Shown here: positions 7,036-45,600 of the stretch, piece after piece
How the letters are laid out: each line of letters opens with the position of its first letter
Numbering within the stretch: the stretch's first letter is position 1
Origin: Octopus sinensis
Taxonomy: Eukaryota
Direction: 5' to 3'
Assembly (NCBI RefSeq): GCF_006345805.1
Contig: NC_043004.1
Coordinates: 107,012,001-107,076,000, forward strand
Length of the DNA stretch: 64,000 bases
Position numbers and translations under genes: made by a program
The notes under the pieces: model-generated
Told to the model about the DNA's origin: nothing
Seen by the model: only the letters and a program-made list of their open reading frames with translations
Database searches by the model: none

Positions 7036-8192
7036 TTGCGAAAATCTAACACAGTCTACTTTACACTATTTTAACTTCGCCAAAAAGTAAAGACTGCACT
7101 GGCTACCTTCCAACTCTTTTTCTGTCGTTATTTTACTAATCTCCGGAACAAGTGAATTGGTTACCACCTCTGCCTGAACACTCTCGATATATTCTCCAGA
7201 CTTGTTCTTGCCTTCTCTATCTATCGTAACAAAAAGCCCAATCCTTATACAAAATATTTCACCCAGACTTTTAGCTCGTAATTTCAATTCAATGCCCCTA
7301 TTACTTTCTCCCTGCTCACATCTTTCTCAGATATCATCTTCCTGAAACTTCAAATTGAACATCAGTTGCGTCATTCTCACAAGTCTGAGGCGACCCAAAT
7401 ACTGTGAGTAGAACTATTCTACTTCCTCTTAAATAAAATAGAAATATTTCCACCTATATGACCACCAAATACACTAAAACATCTCCGGTTGCAAGATATT
7501 AGTATTTAACGACTTGTGAGTCCACAAGATACATATGTAACGGGCCTAGATAGTAAAAAAATGTCTTCGTTGTTTCCTCTGTCGTTTTATTGTCAAAGCT
7601 TTCGTGGAAGCGAATAAATCAATTTGAGTGCTTTATTGCATGTTCACTTCAGATAAAGATGCAGATGAAAAGAAGATTAGAGTGAAACATTCTCAATTTA
7701 TAACTTATTCTACAAATCATTTTTATTGGGCTTAAAGCAAATATTCAAAAAATCCTATTTGAAAAAGATATCGAATATCAAATAATGGCACAAGCACACG
7801 CGCATACTCCGAAGTAAACTAAATTGTAATTCAAATCACAAAGCATAGGTTTAGAAACACCAGAATGATATTAAATAACAAAGAACGATAAGAAATAAGT
7901 AATTGTATTCGTACCCATGTACAAACACATAAACACACACATCCACAGAAAAACAATAAAAACCTTGCTGCTTATTGGAGTTTTTAACTGAAAGTATGAA
8001 TCGAAAGAAATATATTCATATAACCAATCCAATCACTATCAGAAAGCCTCATGCCAGAGTCGCAATGTAGTCGACATGACCTTCGATGTGAGGTTGCTTC
8101 AGAAGTTCAGGAAGCAAAATCAGGATCTTTTCTCTCTCTTCTATTTTCAGCTCAGAGCTGCGGCCATGCTGATGCACCGCCGTTAAATTAAG

Positions 8193-8302
8193 AAAATATG
8201 GAACGCTTCACGAATTTGCGTGTCATCCTTGTGCAGGGGCCATGCTAATCTTCTATCATGCTATCGTTCCAATTTTAGAATATGTACCGCCGTAGCTCGT
8301 AC
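8193..8302 (-). ncRNA. U6: U6 snRNA full-length copy, probably a retropseudogene
   Basis: GTAC..CATATTCTAAAATTGGAACGAT...GAAGATTAGCATGGCCCCTGCACAAGGATGACACGCAAATTCGTGAAGCGTTCCATATTTT; ACAGAGA box disrupted and no upstream TATA. Confidence 0.92.
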
Positions 8303-12231: not shown

Positions 12232-12485
12232 ATATCACAATCAAGGAACGGCCATAATAGGCCATTCACCCACTAGAAATAACAGCCAAAAAGCTTCAAC
12301 CGCAAAATAACATTAATTCCGTAAATCAGGAGAAAATTAAAAAACTTAAAAAACTAAAAAATTAAAAAAAAATTTTTTTATTTTCTCCTGATTTACGGAA
12401 TTAATGTTATTTTGCGGTTGAAGCTTTTTGGCTGTTATTTCTAGTGGGTGAATGGCCTATTATGGCCGTTCCTTGATTGTGATAT
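12232..12485. repeat. Perfect inverted repeat, 106-bp arms, 42-bp A/T-rich spacer
   Basis: 12232-12337 is the reverse complement of 12380-12485. Confidence 0.95.
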
Positions 12486-29800: not shown

Positions 29801-32800
29801 AGGCTTATTTTAAGCCAGACTGTCTCTTCTAACTTGCCTGACTCTACAATATGTGCAGCTGTACTGCTCACTTTTTATAAACTGCAAGTCTTTCTGATAT
29901 AGTTAGGGGACTCTTGTAATATACTGCAAAGTTACTTTAACCCCTTAACATTCAAACTTGCCATATCTGGCCAAAATATTCTACCTATTTTATGTTCAAA
30001 CCAGCCAGATCTGGACTCTCACACCTATCCTACAATGCCATTCTAAAAATAAGCAATCGCATTGTCAAAATCTCAAAGCTATGAGATAAAGCATGGGTTA
30101 TTGAGAACAATGTAAATTTGCATTTGACAGAATAATCTGAATGCTAAAGAGTCAAATATTGCAAGCCTTAATGCACTGGAAACATTTTCCCTGAATATGC
30201 AATGTTGAAATGAGAGTGCAGCCAATGTGCCTGTGTCTCTTTTATGCCATCGAATGTGGAGCACGGGATGCGCCGTGCAAATGGAACCAGCTGTTACACA
30301 GACTATAGGATATAAGGATAGTCGATAGTCACAATCCAGACATCATGAATGCTGGTATCATGATGTTGATGTTACATTAAGATGACTGTCTGACACCAAC
30401 TATTTAAGAGTAGGATGGTTACAAGATACAGTAAATCTGTAGTTATCTACAAGTGTTATGTAGTTTCAGCATAAGAAAACACGTCCTTTCTCATGCATAC
30501 AAAACGTCTGGTGCACTTGTCACACAGAAAACTCAACCTGAGGACAGTTATTTCTTCACAAAAAATTTCTTAGCCACCAAAATCTAACATAACTCAAACC
30601 AACAAAAAAAGTCTCTATGTGGTCGTTTGATCTGCAAGAAATAGCAGTCAAATCTCCATTTAACAATATCTTAATAATTAAAAAAAAAATAAGAGCACAG
30701 CCCTAGATATTCCTAAAAAAAACAGGAAGGTCATTCCTGAAACATCTTTGATCACAAGTCTACTTGATCAGCTCTGTCCTGGGGTTAAACAATAAAAAAA
30801 AAAAAGAAACAAACAAACAACAGCCACTGACCTGACTTTCTTGTGCAGTCTCGCCTGGTTTTCTGTTTTCTCCTTCTGTTGCATAGAGAATCTGTAATAA
30901 AAAAAAAAAATTAACTGATTAGTAAACATTAACAAAATAACAACTAGTCACGAAACACAATTAACTGGTCAATAAACATTTATTGGAAAAAATCAATTGG
31001 TCAATAGGAAATTGGAATGATTTTGGTCTTACCAAAGCATTTTTATTAGTTTTTTATTATTTTACTCAATATATTTCATTCTGCCACATGAAGATTTAGC
31101 ATGTATGTATGTAGGGGGGTGGGGGGTGAATGCACATATATCAAAATGAGTAGTTCTTAATGAGGAGAGAGAGAGAGAGCATGTATGTGTGCACATACAT
31201 ACGTGTGTGTGTGTGTGCATGAGTGTGAGTATGCATTCACACAAAAAAGATGCAAAATGGTTTTTCTCATAAGCTTTCTCAGGAATCTCTGAGATCGCTC
31301 CTACATCCCAACTCACATTGAGCAGAAGTGAGGATGTAGGTGGAGGGGCAGGGTTGGAGTTACCAGGGACATGAATCATCAAATTCACTGATGCAGAACA
31401 TTAGAATCACAGACACGATGCATTCCAATTCCTTTGGCCAGTGTCATTAGCTGTTTAACAAACATCGCATTATTACACAGTGTTAAAACATCACTTCTTT
31501 CTTCTTTAAAAAAGTCAGTGGAGGAAAGGCAACATCCAGACTTTTGTAGAACCTCTAAGATGGTAAGGAAATGGATAGAGTTTATAGTTGGGAAGTTAAT
31601 GAGCTGAATGGTGTTGTGTAAGCAAGCGGTTATGTCCTCAAGAAATTTAGTCTGTGGAGCTCAGTTTTTGTGATGTTATATGAAATTGTTATAGGAAATC
31701 ATCTGAGTTAGTATTTGTAGAAACTTTAAGTGCTTTAGCTGTGTTTTTATACACAATGGAAGGTGTAGTACAAGACTGTCTCCTTGATATTTATTTATTT
31801 ATTTTTTTGGTGCTGCTAAAGGAGACTAAGTTGCCACATCCCAATTAGGGAGTGTATTCTAGGTTGCAATTAATTCTAGGTTTGATGGATTAAATCAGGA
31901 AATGTATGGTATGTCATGGTTGCATGTGAATAACCAAAAGACAAAGAAGAGTGAAAGGCACCTTGAATCTGCAGAGATAGAAGTGTGAGTGATTAGAATG
32001 GTGAGAAGGAAGGGTAGAGGAGAGACATAGAAGTTAACAGAATTTGATTGCAGAGAATCACACATTGCTGGAACTTGCAAACCAAACTGGATCTCTCTCT
32101 CCCACCACTAATCACTCAACTATGAAAGCAGACACCTTTTGCCAGCCGGATACATTAAGGAAAGCAGAGTTTATTGGTCTCTGTCAATAAACAAACTGGA
32201 ACTGGCTGCAGTAATAAACACGGGACTCTAGAATGTGACCAGCTGGAGCAGAGCTATTTCTAATGTTTGGTTACTTATAGTTTGAAGCATGATAGAGTGT
32301 GATGTGTGAAGTGAAGTAAAGTGAGGTGGGATCCAGAGTAATGATGTGCTCAAGTGTAATTGCACTTCATGTAATTAGTGAAGTTCAGAATTATCTACAC
32401 CAGCATGGTGGCATGTGATATAGTGAATTGTACTGTCACAGAGCAGAATGTGGTGCAGTGTGTTATAGTACAGAGTGGTTTCGTATATGATATAGCTTCA
32501 TTTAGCATGAGGTGTATGAGGTACAGCGTGAGGTGTTTGTGGTACAGCATGAGGCGTCTGAGGTACAGCGTGAGGTGTATGAGGTACAGCGTGAGGGTGT
32601 TTGTGGTACAGCATGAGGCGTGTCTGAGGTACAGCATGAGGTGTATGAGTGGTCAGCGTGAGGGTGTTTGTGGTACAGCATGCAGAGGATCTAAGGTACA
32701 GCAGATGTGTGTATGAGGTACAGCGTGAGGTGTTTGTGGTACAGCATGAGGCGTCTGAGGTACAGCATGAGGTGTATGAGGTACAGCGTGAGGTGTTGTG

Positions 32801-35800
32801 GTACAGCATGAGGCATCTGAGGTACAGCATGAGGGTATGAGGTACAGCGTGAGGTGTTTGTGGTACAGCATGAGGGCGTCTGAGGTACAGCGTGAGGTGT
32901 ATGAGGTACAGCGTGAGGTGTTTGTGGTACAGCATGAGGCGTCTGAGGTACAGCATGAGGTGTATGAGGTACAGCGTGAGGTGTTTGTGGTACAGCATGA
33001 GGCATCTAAGGTACAGCATGAGGTGTATGAGGTACAGGTGAGCGTGAGGTTGTTGTGGTACAGCATGAGGCGTCTGAGGTACAGCATGAGGTGTATGAGG
33101 TACAGCGCGGAGTTGTTTGTGGTACAGCATGAGGCATCTGAGGTACAGCATGAGGTGTATGAGGTACAGCGTGAGGTGTTTGTGGTACAGCATGAGGCGT
33201 CTGAGGTACAGCGTGAGGGTATGAGGTACAGCGTGAGGTGTTTGTGGTACAGCATGAGGCGTCTGAGGTACAGCATGAGGTGTATGAGGTACAGCGTGAG
33301 GTGTTTGTGGTACAGCATGAGGCATCTAAGGTACAGCATGAGGTGTATGAGGTACAGCGTGAGGTGTTTGTGGTACAGCATGAGGCGTCTGAGGTACAGC
33401 ATGAGGTGTATGAGGTACAGCGTGAGGTGTTTGTGGTACAGCATGAGGCATCTGAGGTACAGCATGAGGTGTATGAGGTACAGCGTGAGGTGTTTGTGGT
33501 ACAGCATGAGGCGTCTGAGGTACAGCGTGAGGTGTATGAGGTACAGCGTGAGGTGTTTGTGGTACAGCATGAGGCGTCTGAGGTACAGCATGAGGTGTAT
33601 GAGGTACAGCGTGAGGTGTTTGTGGTACAGCATGAGGCATCTGAGGTACAGCATGAGGTGTATGAGGTACAGCGTGAGATGTTTGTGGTACAGCGTGGGG
33701 TGCTTGAGGTATAGCGTGAGGTGTGAAAGCATGTGACTAAATGGTTTGGGGTGTTTGGTTCATGATCGTAAGGTCATGAGTTCAATTCCTGGTGGCATAT
33801 TGTGTCCTTGAGTAAGACTCTTTGTTTCAAGTTGCTCCAGTCCACTCAGGTGGCAAAAGTTAGTTGTACCTGTAATACAAAAAGGACCAGCCTTGTAACA
33901 TTGTGTCACATTGGATCTCCCTGAGAACTACACGAAGGGTACATGTGTCTGTGGTGTACTCAGCCATTTGCTCATTAATTTCATGACCAGGCTGTTCAGC
34001 TGATCAGATCAGCTGGAACACTCACCATCATAACCAACAGAGCACCAGCTTTATAGCATGATGCAGAATGGTATGGTTTTGTTACAAAATAGTTGGCATG
34101 GGGGGGGGGGTGATATAGCATGACATTGTGTTTACAGCATAAAGTGGTGCGCTACCATATGATGTGGGGTAGTGAAGTTCAACATGGTTTGCTGTTGCAC
34201 AGTGTCAAGAAGGTTTGATAACAGGTTGTAACGGAGCTTTTAGAAAATGTGATAATAAATAATTACCTGAAATATTCTTGGAATATCTTTAGAATCAGCT
34301 CGATACACATCTCCTTGAGTAACTGGACGTACATGGAATAATTTACTAAAGGAAACAAAAAAAAAAAAATTAGAAAAATATCACTCAGACCAGATAAAGA
34401 TTATCATTGTCATGATTTCAACTCATTACATCCTGAGGTCAAATTCTGCTGAGATTAATTTTGCCTTCATCTCTCTGGGGTTGATAGAATAAAGTACCAG
34501 TCAAGTACTGGGGTCAATGTAATTGACTTGCCCCTCCCTTCAAATTTGTTGGTCTTGTACCCAAGGACACTTACAGTATGACAGTGATGCTCGTTTACAA
34601 CCATCACATGATATCAGGACAAGGAGACAGTAATGGATACACACAACGGGCTTCTTTCAGTTTCCACTTATTGGATCCACTCACAAGGCTTTGGTTGGCT
34701 CATAGCTACAGAAGCAGAAACTTACTCAAAGCGCCACCCAGTGGGACGGAACCTGAAACTATGTGGACGGCTATGTTGGATAGCTTATTTCTTGCAAGAT
34801 TAGCAATTTTGAGAGGAACGGTTAAATCAATTTCATGAACCCCAGTATTTGACTGGTACTTTAATGTATTGACTCTAAAAAGCATGAAAGACAAAAGGTG
34901 GCTTCAGTGGGATTTGAACTCAAAAAACAAAAAGAAATATTACAAAGCATTTATTCCTGAGCCAACTTACAGCTAAATAATAATGATGATAATAATAATA
35001 GATTCTTATTTTCACACAAGACCAGTAACTTTGAGCGGTGGGGTTAGTAGTCAATACTATTGATCTCAGTACTTGGAGTGGTTCTTTTATGAACCTTAGA
35101 GGAGTGAACAGCAAAACTGACTTTGATAGGATATGAACTCAGAGTATAAATAACCAGAAGAAATAGCCTTTCTACTCTAGGCACAAAGCCTGAAATTTTG
35201 GGGGTGGGGTCAGCTGATTACATCAACCCCAGTACTTGATTGGTAATTGTTTCATCAACCCATAAAGGATGAAAAGCAAAGTTGACCTCGGTGGAATTTG
35301 AACTAAAAAATGTAAAAATGAATGAAATGACGCTAAGCATTTTGTCTGGCATGCTAATGATACTGCCCGCTCATTGTCTTAATAATAATAATAATAATAA
35401 CAATAATAATAAAAGTAGTAGTAGTAGTTTTAAATTTTGCCACAAGGGAAGCAATTCTGGGGTAGAGGATGAGTCAATTACATCGACCCCAGTGTTTAAC
35501 TGGTATTTATTTTATCAACCCCAAAAGGATGCAAGGTAAGGTCAACCTCGGCAGAATTTGAACTCAGAACATAAAGAAAAATGAAATGCCATCATTCTCT
35601 GGCTCCACTCAATCACTCCTAACTCCTACCTTCTTTTCTAAAATGTGAGTTATCACGTAGCTCCTCTACAGCAAGAAACCTGTTCTGTCCCAGCCCTTTT
35701 TCTCACATCTTTACCCATCTTTCACTGCATCTTCTAGCATAAAATTGCTCAACCTGTGCTTTATAGTCTTACAAAACTGTGTAAGAGACTAGTAGCTTGA

Positions 35801-37677
35801 AACAAGCACCCAGTATATGTTGTAAAATGACAGGCATTAGGAAGGACATCCAACCATAGAAACCATACGGGAGCAGACACTGGAGCATGATGTAGCCCTT
35901 GGGCCCATCAAATCTCGTCAAACTCTCCAACTCATGCCAGCATGGAACATGGATGTTAAATTATGACAATTATTATTTTTAACTATGCCATTAGGAAACA
36001 TAAAAATGTTTCATCTTTTCACATTTCTTTACACAAAAACAACAGATTGTAAATTTAAAATATGGAGGTAGACATTTGAATTTATACGCTATTTCACACA
36101 CACATCATCATCATCGTTTAATGTCTGCCTTCTTTGCTACACTCCTAGCACCACTGATCATCCCACTGACACATTTTCATTAAATTCTATAAATAAATGT
36201 TATTAAACGCCACAGTAGACCAATACATAGGCTAATATATTGAAGCACAGTCCAAAGGTTATTTGGATCTAGTTTTTCTATCAAGCAAAAACAACAATGG
36301 AAACCAACTTATTGTTTAAATATCCAAATGGGCAAAGATGTAAAATTAACTGCTATTTTAGGTTAGGTGCTCACATTCTGTCATACATTTAACCATTTTA
36401 AGTGTGTTTTTTTTAATGGAGAGCCTATGATATGAGCTTCTTTATGGCAGGCTTTCTTTTTTAATTATGTTCTTAACTCTTTAGCTTGACTTTTGTCCAA
36501 TTGCTAGAAAGAAGGTGGTTGGCATAGCATCTTTTGAATTTGCCATCGCATAACAGCGAAATTCTTCTGTTCAGTTAGGTTATCATTTAGCATTGCTGTA
36601 ACTTCTGCCTCGTATATAATGGAGTTTATCATACACCACTGGTTGGGAGGACAAGCTCCAGGGTTTTAACAGTTACAACTTGGAGTGGGCTTTTGGTGGT
36701 GTTTATGGGCAAGGTGGTTGGCATAGCATCTTTTGAATTTGCCATCGCATAACAGCGAAATTCTTCTGTTCAGTTAGGTTATCATTTAGCATTGCTGTAA
36801 CTTGCCTGGTATATAATGGAGTTTTATTACACCATGGTTGGGAGGACAAGCTCCAGGTTTTTAAAAACGTTACAACTTGGAGTGGGCTTTTGGTGGTGTT
36901 TATGGGCAATGATGCTCTTCATATTGGGGCAGCAGCTATATGATAATTTAATTGCATGTCTGTTAAAAATCTTCCTGTATTTGTGATTTTGAGGAAAATG
37001 CTTATTTAGACATTTCTGGGAATTACTTATCCAGAAAATCACAAATACAGAAAGACTGTTTAACAGATATTCACTTAAATTATCTAGATGTTGCCCCGAT
37101 ATGAAGAAGATCATTACCTGTAAATATCACCAAGAGCCCACTCTCAGTTGTAACGTTTGAGACCCTGGACTTCTCCAACCAGCTAGGGACATATGGTAAG
37201 CTCTGTTATATATGAGGCAAAAGTTACAGCAATACTCTGTGATAACTTAACTGAAAAGAAGTATTACATCACATTAAGCAAAAGCAAGTTCAAATGTTGT
37301 CCTAACTGCCTGCCCTCTTCCAGGACATGGACAAAAGTAAAGCCACTAAGTTGGTCTTCAAACTCCATACAGGATTATCCAACTCCATACCACTTACAAT
37401 CAAGTGGTTAAATCATAGAATAATTCATGTCATATGTTGATGGATAAAAAAGTTGCAAGTGATGCATACTTTTTTACTTGTTTCAGTCATTTGACTGTGG
37501 CCATGCTGGAGCACCGCCTTTAGTCGACCAAATCGACCTCAGGTCTTATTCTTTGTAAGTCTAGAACTTATTCTATCGGTTCCTTTTGCCAAACTGCTAA
37601 GTTACTGGGATGTAAACACACTAACATTGGTTGTCAAGTGATGTTGGGGGGACAAACACAGACACACAACCATACAA

Positions 37678-38723: not shown

Positions 38724-38762
<39 letters not shown>

Positions 38763-41700
38763 CTTAATTTCGAAACGTACGTCCGTAGGTGACTTAAAAT
38801 TGTATGCCGGTGACACGTAAAAGCACCATCCGTTCGTGGCCATTGTGCCAGCTCTGTCTGGCACCTGTGCAGGTGGCACGTAAAAAACACCCACTACACT
38901 CGCAGAGTGGTTGGCATTAGGAAGGGCATCCAGCCGTAGAAACACTGCCAAATCTGACTGGGCCTGATGAAGCCTTCCGGCTTCACAGACCCCAGTTAAA
39001 CCGTCCAACCCATGCTAGCATGGAAAACGGACGCTAAATGATGATGATGATGATGATATATATATATACTAGAATATAAGGATAAAATCATGTTAATGAC
39101 TTTTATCAAGTAGTTAGCATGCAATAAAAATTTATAGATAATTTACACATTAAGATAAGAATTATATATATATATATATATATAATATATATATATGTGT
39201 GTGTGTGTAAATAATTAAATTAAGGCAGGAAGGGCCAAAAGAAAAAAGCCTGTTTTTACAGCTTTAATCTAGAAATTGGACCCAATTCCCAATTAACATG
39301 AAGTCTTTTTAATGTCCTTTCACTCGCCTGACTACAATCCGTGTATATTTTGGGAGTTTTTTGGTAGCATCAGAGAGCCTCGGCATTTTCCACCAAGTCG
39401 GTTTCTTTTTTTTTTTTTGCCTTTGCTCCCTTAAAATAATTATATACACATATAATTATCATTTTAATGTATGTATGTATAATTACTTATACTCGTGTGC
39501 ACAGACACATGCACACTGCACTGATGTGAATATGCAAGATAGGAATGTCTGGAAACATTTCAAGAGAACTGTCAGCTAGAAACAGAAGTTCCCTCTTAAA
39601 TTGCTGACATCCTCAACTAAGACAAAGGTCAGACAAAGAAGTTCAAGGATATAAACTGCAGCATTCTAATTGAGATAGCTTTGACCTTTCAAAGATGCTG
39701 AAGACAAGAGTGAAGTAAGAATTCCAACCGTTTCCATATATTATCGTTTTTGTGTTTTTTTCCTTCTTTTTATTCATTTTCTTTTTAAACATAATTGCTG
39801 TATTTCGTATTCTGTTCGAATGGGTTGGAGAGTAAACTAAGCAGTTGTTGATTATTGATAAAATATCTGTGCTTAGTAATATTCCACTTTTCATAGTTGT
39901 TTGCTTCTGTAACCACAGCCTTGAACAACACAGAATTTCTAATCAAATGATATCATCTAAATCTATCGAAATGCAGCATATGCCATACACTGTGTTGAAA
40001 ATCTTTGACGAAACGTGATTGCCTACGCAAGTATTAAACAAAATCTCCTCCAAGATGAGCTAAAACTAAAATTGAAGAAACAAACAAGTAAGGGAGATAA
40101 CTCCAATGTGATCAGTTGATTAATTTTTCTGGTTATTACTCACAATATATTTTGAAGTGTCTCACCCATATTGATAACCCTGATCAATGTTACAACATTC
40201 TCTCTCTCCTCCTTTATACATATATATCTGTTTGTGTGTGTGTGTGTGTATATGTGAGTGCATGCACGTGTGAGTGCACAGACATGACAGAAGTAAATAG
40301 AGAACCATAAAACATCATTTTATGTTCATTCTCACTTGTAACGGTTTATATATTTTATTAATTGACATTTTTATGTTTCAGGTTCTATAAGTGAGTGTTT
40401 AATCATGGTATGTACAAAAGAAACCTTGGAACTGTCTCAATTTCAAAGAGGCCATATTGTGGATCATTCTGAAGGTGGACATAGCATGAAATTGCAGAAA
40501 ACCTTGGGATCCCACTTTCTACAGTTAATAAAGTGATTGTGCTATTCACATATAACAATTAACAAATAATTTCAATGTATAATTTCAGATTAATGATTAT
40601 AAGGGGTCTATTTACTTCTGTCATGTGTGTGTTTGTCTGTGTATGCACACATGTGCATACATGTATACATATATATGTGCATGTGTATTTTAGATAAGGA
40701 GCAGATTTTTACTCTGTAGAATTGAAGGTAAGCCTGTTATTCAATATAAGGGGAGGAAAATAGTTAAATTACATAATAACTAAGATTAATATTGATCTAA
40801 CTAACTAGTATCTGAGATTAATATTGGCTTAGTTACCCAGTATCCAGGATTCAGAATGGATTACTCGGAACCTTATACTAAAATAGGATTCTTTTATCTT
40901 TTACTTGTTTCAATCATTGGACTGCAGCCATGCTCAGGCACCACCTTGAAAGGTTTAGTCGAATAACTTGTCCTCAGTACTGAGATTTCTTACTTATTCT
41001 GTTGGCTCCTTTTTGCTGAACCGCTAAGTTGTAGTGTTGGCTAGAAAAACAAGCCAACACCAGTTGTTGAGTGATGGATAAGCAAAAACCCAAAGACATA
41101 CATATATGATAGGCTTCCACACAGTTTCCGTCAACCAAATTCAATAACAAGGCATTGGTCAGCCCGAGCTGTAGCAGAAGACACTGGTCCAAGGTGTCCC
41201 ACAGTGGGATTGAACTCAAAACCCTGGTTGCAAAGCAAGCTTCTCAATCAAAGAGCTATGCCTGCTCAATATCTATTTCTAGTTGGGATCAATACCGGTG
41301 TCACATAATTGCCACTGATGCTGGTGGTACATAAAGAAAAGTACCCTTTACATTCTTGGTGTAGTTGTTGTTATTAGGAAGAATGTCTAGCTTTGGAAAC
41401 CATGCCAAATCAGACTGGAACTTGGTGCAGCTTCCCAGCTTACCAGTTTCAGTCGAACCATCTAAACCTAGGCAGCATGGAAAGCATATGCTAAATGATG
41501 ATGATAGTGATAAAACTCTTTTCTACTCAAGGCACAAGGCCTGAAATTTTTGGGGAAGGAGCCAGTTGATTAGATCAACTCCAGTGCGCAACTAGTACTC
41601 AATTTATCAACCCTGAAAGGATGAAAGGCAAAGTCAACCTTGGCAGAAATTGAACTCAGAACATAAAGACAGACTAAATGCCGCTAAGCATTTTGCCTGG

Positions 41701-42113: not shown

Positions 42114-42167
<54 letters not shown>

Positions 42168-42594
42168 TGTAGAAGAGACTGGTGACACAAGCTTTCATTC
42201 ATACTTTGAATTTGGTGATACTAGCTGTGGCTTCTAGCTCGCTCTGATACTGAGTTGAGTTGGTGCCTTCTAGTATCTCAAAATTCAATATTCAATCATT
42301 CATGATTGTTTGTATCCTGCGCTGATGAAAGAAGAAGTCTGGGTAAAGTAGAGTTATCTAATTCTTATGCTTTCCTAAGACTTGATCTCGAAACGTACGT
42401 CCGTAGGTGACTTAAAACTGTATGATAGATTGCCGTTAATTCATTCTCTCTTGCCTGTTTATGTTTGCCTTTCAAATGCTGTGTCTTTACTGTGATCTCC
42501 CTTTTAGTAGAAGAAATAGCTATAATCTCTTTGACTGCTATTTCTAAATTCGGTGTGTGGTAAGGCAATTCGTTGCTAAACCCTTAATTGCTTA

Positions 42595-42693
<99 letters not shown>

Positions 42694-45600
42694 TATATGT
42701 ATATAGTACCTCTCACTTTTATTTATACATATATATCATCCTCATGTGGGGAATGTTTGATCAGAGAAAACTGGGTGCAAGAGCAGAGCCCAGCATGTAC
42801 AAGTAAAACACAATGGTTTTAGGATCTCCCTGCTACCATGACAAATAGGTCGCTCATGTGTCTGGAAGAGCATTGTGGTTAACTGGTAAGAAGTTTGATT
42901 CCTGCCCACATGGTTCTAAATTCAGTACCACTGCATGGCACCTTCACCAAGTGTCTTCAACTATAGCCCCAGGTCAACCAAAGCCTAATGAGTGGATCTG
43001 ATAGAGAGAAACTGAAAGAAGTCAGTCATGTGCATGTGAGCATGTGTGTGTTTGAGAGAGAGAGAGAGAGAGAGAGACATATGCCAGTATCCTTTGCTTT
43101 CTAAAGACCCTAACTTTTGCTGAGCAATACACCAGCATTAGTGGCCTTGACATCAGAATTATCATGAATGCCAGAAAGTCAATTCTGGCCCACAATGATT
43201 CCTTCTGGGTGAAAAGAGAAGCAAGCCATTGTTCAATGTCTCAATGGGGAGCTTTGACAGGGCTGAAATCGCCTGACCTCGTCGGGTTATACAACTTGGA
43301 TACCTCCAAGAGACATAGGTCAGCCCTCTACAGGGATGACAGCCACACCATGGACAAGTTTAGGAAGGATTTGATAAAAATTAAAATATTTAAGGAGTTC
43401 GGCCAGTCCATAATGGTTACCACTAACCTGACTACAGTCAATTTCTTGGACGTAATCTTAGACCTCAGTACAGGAAATTACTACCTGTTCAGGAAGCCTA
43501 ACGAAGATACAGTATACATCTACAAGTACTCAAACCATCTCCCCACTGTAATTAGAAACTTAGTAAATGATTATCTAATCTCCTGGCCAACAGAGATCTT
43601 TAACAGGGCTGCCCCCCACAACAACAATGCTTTGGCCTGGGGCCGGTTTAATGAGTTCACATATGTGGACAACCCCCAAACACCCTTTCCTCACTCCAAA
43701 AGGATTAGGAGAAGAATAATATGGTATAACCCCCACTTTCAACCTAGAAGTTTCCACCAACGTAGCTAATGGCTTCCTGTCGTTAATTAAGAATCACTGC
43801 ACCAGAGGCTATAAGTATTACAAACTTTTGAATCCCCATAATGTCAAGATGAGCTACTCCTGCTTAGACAACATCACATGCATCAAGACATAAAAATGCA
43901 CCCACATCACCCCCAACCCCAACCTGAAACTTCTGAAACCCCACCATGTGTCCTGTAGATGGATCTTGTCTCTCAAGGGTCATAGTAAACAGAGCCAACC
44001 TTACATCATCCAATGGCATTAATAGGCACTATATGGGTATGACAGCTAATGACTTCAAAGGAAAATACTCCCAGCATATGCACTCACTCAGATTCAGAGA
44101 TAGAGAGAACTCTACTTTCCTGTCTCGTTTTCTCTGGAGACTCCATGATCTCCGAGATGAAATACCCAGCATCAAGTGAACTATTGTCGACAGAGCACCA
44201 CCATATTCACCCAGCACCCCTAACTACCAGCTCTGCCTCCACAAAAAGCTGCATATCCTCCAACAACCCACATTATCCATCAACAAGATATACAATTTAT
44301 CATGTCTTTGTGACACTGACCCTAAGGCCCTTCGAAGCTACCAGGGGCAACCTGTCTTGAATTCCTGTTATTGCCTGGAGGACTATGATGAATAAGAGGG
44401 GGCTGAGGGCTGATCCTTGGTGGACCCCAACTTCTACCCGGAATTCTTCACTATACTCATTGCCAATCCTAACCTAACTAATGGCATCTCTGTATAGGGC
44501 CTGTACAGCTCTTATTAACCATTTGTTAATCCCCAGTTTCCACATCGCTCACCAGATAAGGGATGGGGAGACCCTGTCAAAGGCTTTCTCCCAAGTCCAC
44601 AAAAGCCAAGTATAGGGTTTATCTTTGGCTAGGTAATTCTCCTGCAGTTGCCATACAAAGAATATAGCATCAGTGGTGCTTCTACCCAGCACAAAACCAA
44701 ACTGCATCTCATCTAAGTGGACTCTCCCTAATTAGTTTGGCTATGATCCTTTCCGTGACTTTCATCACCTGATCCAGCAGTTTGATACCCATGTAGTAAT
44801 TTCTATCTAAAGCATCACCTTTATCCTTGTAGCAGTTGACTATGGTGCTGCTATGCCAGTCATTGGGTAGACTCCATCATGAACTACCTGATTTACAATA
44901 CAGGTGAGCAGGCCATAGCCCACACCACCAGATGTTTTAAGCATCTTAGTAGTGATTCCTGATGGGCCAGGGGATTTTCCTGGCTTCATACCCTTAATTG
45001 CTTTATCTACCAGAGAGCTGTCTATTCGGAGAGCTGGTCCTTCTACTGGGTCAATATTTGGCAAGCTCTCCTCCTATTCATTCTCCATGTTCAGCAGTCC
45101 TTTCATAATGGCTTCTCCAAGCCTCTTTCTTTTCCAAATCATTAAAAGCAAGTGCACCATCATCCATGCGGACACATTTCTCTCCTGTGACATCACAATT
45201 TTCTCTCGCACACTGTCTTGCAATCCGAAATACTTCAGTTCTTTGGTCCTCACATCACTGGACATTGGCAAACTCCTTCTTTTCTGCTTTGCCCTTGGCT
45301 ACGTATGCCTGTCACCCAGCCTCCCTTCTGGCTATCTGGTACAGTTCCCTGCTACCCCCACCCTTCTAGGCTTTCCAGGCCTGTTTCTTTGCTCTAATGG
45401 TTTTGTCTACCATATTATTCCACCACCACTTTACTCTAGGTTGGAAGGGACTTTGCATCATTCGCAGACTTGGCCTGTGGCACTCAGTAAGCTGTCCTGT
45501 AAGAATTTCCAACTATTTTCTATGTCTGAGGTCTGTAGTTCCTCCTCCCTCTCATCAAATTTCTTGATGGGGGTGTCCCTAAATCTCTGACCATGTGAAG

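What the first reader, a model, noticed from the sequence alone, without database searches (positions are those of the whole stretch)
42316..42407. Near-intact minimal hammerhead ribozyme with unusually long stem II in a (TA)n-targeted unit
Seen: all core nucleotides (CUGAUGA, GAAA, GUC), a 6-bp stem I (CCUGCG/CGUAGG), a tiny palindromic stem III (C-GUAC-G) and a 61-nt stem II region (AAGUCU/AGACUU, AAAGUA/UGCUUU). The one clear core-proximal defect is A-C instead of G-C at pair 10.1-11.1. It sits in a roughly 430-bp non-coding unit flanked on both sides by (TA)n, 0.5 kb from a PLE body. Established: this architecture is typical of Penelope pLTR and metazoan retrozyme hammerheads. Inference: a microsatellite-targeting, ribozyme-bearing mobile RNA family in this genome.
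Basis: partly seen in the sequence, partly recalled or inferred. Interest (0 to 1): 0.75.

Follow-up and report, generated by a model that had tools for sequence, protein, structure and literature searches.

The report
Retrozyme spreading with mismatched hammerhead ribozyme
This is one cut-short copy of a protein-free, roughly 585-base jumping repeat that carries a hammerhead self-cutting RNA motif and is likely pasted into (TA)n runs by a borrowed Penelope-type enzyme; its newest branch has spread despite losing a base pair that its older relatives keep, which offers a natural test of whether cutting is needed.

Summary
The hammerhead motif is real and as described (42316-42407, predicted cut after 42401). 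It belongs to a dispersed family of ~585-bp head-to-tail, ORF-less units (784 exact hits to an 18-mer). The window holds a 5'-truncated 424-bp piece inside one (TA)n run, not a complete 430-bp unit. Insertions show a Penelope-type footprint: two fixed 3' ends (100 and 53 of 171 arms), mostly followed by (TA)n, variable 5' truncation and inverted arms. Copying reads through the cut site (0 of 100 sampled copies start there), so the template is a circle or an uncut multimer. The A-C pair at 10.1-11.1 is not decay of this copy: it arose once at the tip of the family tree and spread (65 A versus 638 G hits). The nearby Penelope body is an old, broken element and shows no link. No autonomous partner was found. 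Cleavage, expression and circles are untested. Verdict: a new member of the known metazoan non-LTR retrozymes, longer than the 170-400 nt first described, with a long helix II. The scan has already noted similar families on other DNA of this genome.

The parts
42172..42595 (+). 5'-truncated copy of the retrozyme (positions 163-585 of the 585-bp monomer)
   Evidence: blastn 97.6% to the monomer taken from L029; 97-99% identical copies on many contigs
42316..42407 (+). type I hammerhead motif; predicted cut after 42401
   Evidence: sequence; pairs and shuffle control; pair counts across subfamilies
42329..42389 (+). extended helix II (61 nt); A42329-C42389 mismatch at 10.1-11.1
   Evidence: fold; double-sided changes at 10.2-11.2 and 10.3-11.3; A state in one clade
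42393..42400 (+). 8-nt palindrome forming helix III; predicted to pair between two units (double hammerhead)
   Evidence: monomer helix III pair probability <=0.01, self-duplex -9.8 kcal/mol
42499..42595 (+). conserved terminal motif ending at the main fixed 3' end; shared with sister families
   Evidence: nhmmer profile of 59 junctions hits 42499-42606, E 1.6e-33, the family's own copies being in the profile; alignment across families; end counts
42117..42164 (.). (TA)24, left part of the target microsatellite (42165-42171 is a 7-nt filler not matching the monomer)
42596..42705 (.). (TA)55, right part of the target microsatellite
   Evidence: 96 of 100 arms with this end are followed by (TA)5 within 35 nt
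38758..38806 (+). 49-bp fragment of an older subfamily (3' half of the hammerhead only), after a (TA)n run
   Evidence: 91.8% identity, monomer 367-415
43080..44311 (+). old, frameshifted Penelope-like RT + GIY-YIG fragment; neighbour, not part of the element
   Evidence: tblastn in three frames, 29-43% to intact PLE proteins; relatives broken

Best explanation
The motif is the hammerhead of a non-coding, 585-bp tandem repeat family with hundreds of dispersed copies, which is likely a non-LTR retrozyme copied in trans by a Penelope-type reverse transcriptase and endonuclease into (TA)n runs. Shown: family, monomer, tandem arrays, two fixed 3' ends, variable 5' ends, inverted arms, read-through of the cut site, a single origin of the A-C pair. 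Inferred: multimeric transcripts are cut by two hammerheads pairing through the palindromic helix III; monomers are ligated to circles; the enzyme primes at two internal sites (193 and about 298 nt downstream of the cut), one for each arm, and runs round a circle or along an uncut multimer for up to about 5 laps. The A10.1-C11.1 lineage most likely keeps a slower but working ribozyme, since mismatches at this pair occur in other natural hammerheads.
For: Family: 49 matches from 40 scored of 2789 candidates; 784 exact 18-mer hits, control 0. Monomer 585 bp, arrays to about 5 units. Ends of 171 arms in 115 loci: 100 at ~585 (96 followed by TA), 53 at ~105 (48 followed by TA), 18 other (7); of 48 inverted pairs 32 are 585/105 and 1 is 585/585. 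PMC8557442 describes the same inverted copy plus one-sided tail for PLEs, and a young Neptune-like PLE here ends the same way in (TA)n with a ~40-nt tail. Read-through: 0 of the first 100 of 720 hits to a motif starting 3 nt after the cut begin at the cut; 1 of 78 young units does. RNA-level structure: circular monomer -159.8 kcal/mol, z -4.6 on 40 shuffles, reverse strand -118.8; 91% of cells paired against 29-49% for slid partners, 3 helix II pairs with double changes; stem I end pair changed on both sides in a 600-bp subfamily; a sister family has a different but paired stem I and a different palindrome. Young PLE families with long open frames exist in the genome. A U-U mismatch at the base of helix II still cleaves in axolotl (PMC7229834).
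Against: No cleavage, expression or circle is shown. No autonomous element sharing the termini was found among four young PLE families. Units within an insertion are not uniform: median 0.83% within versus 0.71% to the nearest other locus, within lower in only 17 of 38; L031 and L033 show blocks of different haplotypes, which one circle copied once would not give. Covariation does not clearly beat the shuffle control (7/500, 151/500, 8/500, 500/500 and 56/500 for the five measures), and the 12 sequences were pre-selected on stem I, core and helix III. Rfam found no hammerhead. The active fold lies about 4 kcal/mol above the predicted minimum for both A and G copies. Only 1 of 9 Xenopus retrozyme dimers cleaved in vitro in Li et al. 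2026.
Confidence: 0.8

Rival explanations
1. Same family and same borrowed enzyme, but the ribozyme of the youngest lineage is effectively dead: the A-C lineage spreads from uncut multimeric transcripts, or its RNA is cut in trans by G-type sister RNAs through the shared palindrome.
For: G at 10.1 in 31 of 31 complete hammerheads in a sample not selected on that base (27 G, 1 A, 1 gap by blast rows); A arose once (1 change, support 78/84) at the tip of a ladder-like tree and then split into several supported sub-branches; all 65 A hits lie on the young CCTGCG background. Mixed haplotype blocks in arrays fit a linear multimer template. PMC8557442 says hammerhead function in these PLEs is unclear and that lineages without canonical motifs spread well.
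Against: A and G insertions do not differ in length (median 820 versus 717 bp, 40 versus 27 loci, p 0.47). The rest of the core and helix III stay intact in the A lineage, though it is only about 1% diverged. In 12 of 38 multi-unit loci all units share variants seen in no other sampled locus, which points to a single-unit bottleneck such as a circle. I found no measured rate for an A10.1-C11.1 pair.
Confidence: 0.3
2. The monomer is the pseudo-LTR of an autonomous Penelope-like element that was not found, and the arrays are solo or tandem pLTRs shed from it.
For: Insertion footprint is that of PLEs; Li et al. 2026 found 24 of 57 Xenopus retrozyme families similar to known elements, mostly PLE termini. 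Only four young PLE families were examined, and the Neptune search scored 138 of 19493 candidates.
Against: No PLE reading frame abuts a copy in pLTR arrangement in 116 loci (10 loci had a hit within 1 kb, of which I read L001, L044, L107, L154 and L156 in sequence); subfamilies 72-99% identical keep the 585-600-bp head-to-tail unit; no protein remnant in the monomer (best tblastn E 0.38).
Confidence: 0.1
3. A DNA-level satellite that spreads by recombination between (TA)n runs, with a vestigial ribozyme.
For: Adjacent units share variants in blocks in some arrays, as local duplication would give.
Against: Polar structure with fixed 3' ends, scattered 5' ends and 585/105 inverted arms; short arrays at many separate sites; strand-specific fold.
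Confidence: 0.04

Closest known systems
Metazoan non-LTR retrozymes (Cervera and de la Pena 2020, PMC7229834, passages plus sections 14 and 17 read; Li, Clavereau and Pollet 2026, bioRxiv 10.64898/2026.07.22.740005, parts 1-3 of 5 read)
   Same: ORF-less tandem repeat, one type I hammerhead per unit, GC 38%, monomers to multimers at dispersed sites, short palindromic helix III, PLEs in the same genome.
   Different: 585 bp, above the 170-400 nt of the 2020 paper but inside the 51-972 bp range of the 2026 preprint; 61-nt helix II in place of a short capped stem; strict (TA)n targeting with two fixed ends and inverted arms (the word microsatellite does not occur in the 2020 main text); expression and circles not shown here; no matching PLE terminus found.
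Hammerheads in pLTRs of Penelope-like elements (min-HHR; Cervera and De la Pena 2014, PMC4209133, parts 1-2 of 4 read) and EN+ PLE insertion structure (Craig et al. 2021, PMC8557442, passages read)
   Same: Type I topology, palindromic helix III region, predicted dimer activity; insertions with 5' truncation, an inverted arm, a tail at one end only and (TA)n targets.
   Different: No ORF; helix I is 6 bp and there is no extra base between 9 and 10.1; the tail is ~105 nt instead of 30-40; the highly conserved G10.1-C11.1 pair is lost in the youngest lineage.
Axolotl HHR_Amex2 retrozyme (PMC7229834, passage read)
   Same: An abundant retrozyme family with a mismatch at the base of helix II that cleaves weakly as a monomer and better as a dimer.
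   Different: U-U there, A-C here; here the paired ancestor and the mismatched descendant coexist at about 1% divergence.

Membership tests
Type I hammerhead ribozyme | Core CUGANGA, GAAA, UH in type I order with three helices | tested here: met
   1 descriptor hit in the window, 0 in 30 shuffles
Type I hammerhead ribozyme | G10.1-C11.1 (paired) base of helix II | tested here: not met
   A-C in this copy and its lineage (65 hits); met in the rest of the family (638 hits). Described as highly conserved, not invariant (PMC4209133, PMC2837043, PMC7229834)
Type I hammerhead ribozyme | Helices kept by compensatory change | tested here: inconclusive
   3 pairs with double changes, far above slid controls but not clearly above shuffles; further double changes read by eye
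Type I hammerhead ribozyme | Match to an Rfam hammerhead model | tested here: not met
   none at E<=1; the long helix II is a likely reason (inference)
Type I hammerhead ribozyme | Self-cleavage after H17; loop 1-loop 2 tertiary contact | not testable with these tools
   needs in vitro assay and probing
Non-LTR retrozyme | Tandem repeat with at least two consecutive units each bearing a complete type I hammerhead | tested here: met
   27 of 171 arms cross the cut site two or more times; L031 has four full direct units. The window copy itself is a lone partial unit
Non-LTR retrozyme | No protein-coding capacity; GC below 50% | tested here: met
   no frame of 100 aa or more lies within 42172-42595; no PLE protein remnant; GC 38%
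Non-LTR retrozyme | Dispersed, recently mobile copies | tested here: met
   median 1.1-1.2% from the class majority in young lineages
Non-LTR retrozyme | Expressed as unit-length linear and circular RNA | tested here: inconclusive
   only assembled contigs of runs not on record as RNA were available
Penelope-like element (autonomous, EN+) | RT + GIY-YIG ORF between pLTRs | tested here: not met
   no ORF in or joined to the unit in 116 loci
Penelope-like element (autonomous, EN+) | Insertion footprint: 5' truncation, inverted arm, tail on one end, microsatellite target | tested here: met
   so it works like a PLE substrate without being an autonomous PLE
PLE minimal hammerhead (min-HHR) | Extra base between 9 and 10.1, helix I 4-5 bp, helix III absent or small | tested here: not met
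   no extra base in G-type copies, helix I 6 bp; a small palindromic helix III is shared with some PLE variants

The most novel reading that the evidence does not exclude
The newest, still radiating branch of this retrozyme spreads with a disabled ribozyme, either without cutting at all or as a cheater cut in trans by its intact sister RNAs through the palindromic helix III; this would show in one genome that self-cleavage is dispensable for Penelope-driven spread, and that the enzyme primes from two fixed internal sites on an RNA it can lap several times.
Probability: 0.25. Interest if true: 0.7.

Novelty: new member of a known kind. Interest (0 to 1): 0.44.

Why it matters
Two points are open in the papers read: which enzyme mobilises animal retrozymes (PLEs are called a strong candidate in PMC7229834 and supported by sequence kinship in the 2026 preprint), and what the hammerhead does for PLE-type elements (called unclear in PMC8557442). 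This family gives an insertion footprint that fits PLE machinery, and a natural pair of near-identical lineages that differ at a core-adjacent base pair, so the role of cleavage can be tested by comparing two natural RNAs. The class itself is known, the autonomous partner is missing and no RNA-level step is shown, so the interest is moderate.

Tried and rejected
Window PLE body as partner: rejected, it is an old broken lineage; Pfam gave no useful hit on three of its frames. Autonomous partner: four young PLE families (Neptune-like A, 811 aa, weak RVT_1 hit; and B, C, D) share no terminal sequence with the monomer, except an inverted sister-family insert in the 3' microsatellite of family C at 3 loci. 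A Neptune fragment upstream of L154 and L156 looked like a parent, but the two loci are one duplicated region and a (TA)n run separates the parts; these two loci were therefore counted twice. Pile-up of 5' ends at the cut site: 4 of 171 arms start at 386-400 (a sample mostly selected on upstream motifs); in unselected samples 1 of 78 starts exactly at the cut with two more about 2 nt after it and 0 of 100 (the comparison of the lists was made by eye and 18 sites were inspected), so no enrichment is claimed. Expression: no RNA holder listed; contigs of runs guessed to be RNA cover the unit and mostly carry G at 42329, which is no evidence either way. Long-range pairing across the fixed end appears in the single-sequence fold but not in the consensus fold of 16 junctions, which gave only two weak hairpins; not claimed. 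Literature searches for a measured effect of A10.1-C11.1 or U4C found nothing usable; that changes at 10.1-11.1 slow cleavage and that U4C is tolerated are recalled, not from a call. A search for hammerhead + Penelope + octopus listed 4 papers; by title and abstract none describes such a family, and only PMC8557442 was opened. No supplements were read; they may list such families. Rows dropped before counts: 11 loci re-fetched in longer form and 3 apparent haplotype duplicates; arms touching a locus edge.

Full report
Observation. The motif is in the sequence as written: stem I CCTGCG/CGTAGG, core CTGATGA and GAAA, helix III inside the palindrome ACGTACGT, C17 at 42401, and a 61-nt helix II region. 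A42329-C42389 is the only unpaired position among the 32 pairs I specified. A relaxed descriptor finds this site once in the window and never in 30 shuffles. Rfam gives no hammerhead at E<=1. By the definitions in PMC4209133 (parts 1-2 read) the plan is the canonical metazoan type I one (helix I 6 bp, basal helix II 4 bp, 2-bp helix III with palindromic loop), with helix II extended, and not the PLE minimal motif.

The element. A genome search with the 431-bp stretch gave 49 matches from 40 scored of 2789 candidates, the full-length ones 97-99% identical. Their flanks show a 585-bp head-to-tail monomer. I number it from the base after the main fixed end, which puts the predicted cut after position 392. 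The window copy is positions 163-585 (42172-42595), set between (TA)24 and (TA)55. An 18-mer spanning the 3' half of the ribozyme has 784 exact hits, control 0. A sample of 40 such sites, nearly all on one contig, shows subfamilies 71-96% identical with the same unit length, and a 600-bp subfamily also exists. A sister family of about 570 bp shares the terminal motif and tail and has its own hammerhead.

Insertion footprint (171 arms in 115 loci, chosen by family motifs and so not a random sample). 3' ends fall at ~585 in 100 arms, at ~105 in 53 and elsewhere in 18; (TA)5 follows within 35 nt in 96, 48 and 7 of these. 5' ends are spread over the whole monomer. Of 48 tail-to-tail inverted pairs, 32 have one end at 585 and the other at ~105, 1 has both at 585 and 15 have one irregular end. 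PMC8557442 (passages) describes this pattern for EN+ PLEs: an inverted truncated copy, a tail on one end only and (TA)n targets. A young Neptune-like PLE in this genome ends in the same way. I infer that a PLE enzyme primes at two internal sites of the RNA.

Template. 134 of 171 arms cross the cut site and 27 cross it two to five times. Of the first 100 of 720 hits to a motif that starts 3 nt after the cut, none begins at the cut; 1 of 78 young units does. A cut linear monomer is therefore not the usual template; it is a circle or an uncut multimer. The data do not decide between these. In 12 of 38 multi-unit loci all units share variants absent from the other sampled loci, which fits a single-unit bottleneck; but within-insertion divergence (0.83%) is no lower than the distance to the nearest other locus (0.71%), and L031 and L033 carry haplotype blocks. 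Assembly error and later duplication may contribute.

Ribozyme conservation. On 12 non-redundant copies, 91% of cells pair against 29-49% for slid partners, and three helix II pairs change on both sides, but shuffles are not clearly beaten and the set was pre-selected on stem I, core and helix III. In 29 loci not selected on the 5' half, stem I, core and 10.1 vary about half as much as the monomer overall (0.032 versus 0.062); the changes are mainly an A-U to G-U wobble and U4C in 5 of 29. The 600-bp subfamily changes the outer stem I pair on both sides. The circular monomer folds at z -4.6 on this strand, much better than on the other. Helix III is not predicted to form in a monomer, while the palindrome self-pairs at -9.8 kcal/mol, so a double hammerhead is the likely active form (mechanism as in PMC4209133 and PMC7229834).

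The A-C pair. It is not decay of this copy. Degenerate patterns give 65 A and 638 G hits genome-wide (the G pattern allows one more degenerate base), and all 65 A hits are on the young background. Exact 31-mers of the young lineage give 60 A and 26 G. In a tree of 64 young and 10 older units, A needs one change (support 78/84, 79% of bootstrap trees), sits at the tip of a ladder and splits into several supported sub-branches, so A-type RNA likely served as template repeatedly. None of 67 loci mixes A and G, and insertion lengths do not differ (p 0.47). A mismatch at the base of helix II is compatible with slow cleavage in axolotl (PMC7229834), and the sister family has A opposite A there. I found no measured rate for A-C. 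The likeliest reading is a slower but working ribozyme; a dead one that relies on uncut multimers or on trans cleavage is the main rival.

The neighbouring PLE and the partner. The body at 43080-44311 is frameshifted and its closest relatives are broken. Ten of 116 family loci have a PLE protein hit within 1 kb; in the five I read, a (TA)n run or other sequence separates the two. Four young PLE families with long open frames share no termini with the monomer, apart from an old inverted sister-family insert carried in one family's 3' microsatellite. The search was not exhaustive.

Expression. No listed holder is on record as RNA, and contigs cannot show strand, ends or circles. Nothing is concluded.

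Verdict. A real type I hammerhead motif in a new member of the metazoan non-LTR retrozymes (PMC7229834; bioRxiv 10.64898/2026.07.22.740005). It meets the sequence-level criteria, is untested at RNA level, and works like a PLE substrate without being an autonomous PLE. Earlier notes of this scan report similar families and a similar two-ended footprint on other pieces of this genome (8 of 221 shown), while a look-up by this sequence found none. My end counts came before I saw those notes. What stands out here is the long helix II and a young lineage that spread after losing G10.1-C11.1. Interest 0.44.

Noticed in passing
L161:4588-7020 (+) and 3' ends in L111-L140: Young Neptune-like PLE with an 811-aa open RT-EN frame in several copies; its 3' UTR holds a very small hammerhead-like motif with the U3-A8 core variant (read by eye).
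   Followed up: partly
L232-L237, L247-L249: Second young PLE family (open frame to 717 aa) with a clear pLTR, a ~70-nt tail and a hammerhead-like motif with U4C (read by eye).
   Followed up: partly
L238-L242, L246: Third PLE family with a hammerhead-like motif having U opposite U at the base of helix II; three copies carry an old inverted sister-retrozyme insert in the 3' microsatellite.
   Followed up: partly
L172-L201: Older sister non-coding family, about 570-bp unit, same terminal motif and tail; its hammerhead mostly has the U3-A8 variant, A opposite A at the base of helix II and a 6-nt palindrome.
   Followed up: partly
L073, L084, L092, L099, L102, L110: Subfamilies of the main family with U4C in the core have also amplified (6 of 31 loci with a complete motif).
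   Followed up: partly
L086, L260, L263: Small deletions between short repeats at or next to the cut site in otherwise continuous copies.
   Followed up: no
window 8192-8302 (-): U6 snRNA copy, 90.5 bits, with a 4-nt insertion; probably a pseudogene.
   Followed up: no
window 32504-33724: G-rich 21/63-bp tandem array, 19 copies of 63 bp, open in several frames.
   Followed up: no
window 36555-37015 (-): Another decayed Penelope-like fragment.
   Followed up: no
window 12232-12485: Inverted repeat with 116-bp arms, 98% complementary, 22 bp apart, next to (TA)n runs.
   Followed up: no
window 42262-42417, run X18: One low-depth contig from a run with a different organism label matches with 1 difference in 156 nt and has A at 42329; too little to date the lineage.
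   Followed up: no
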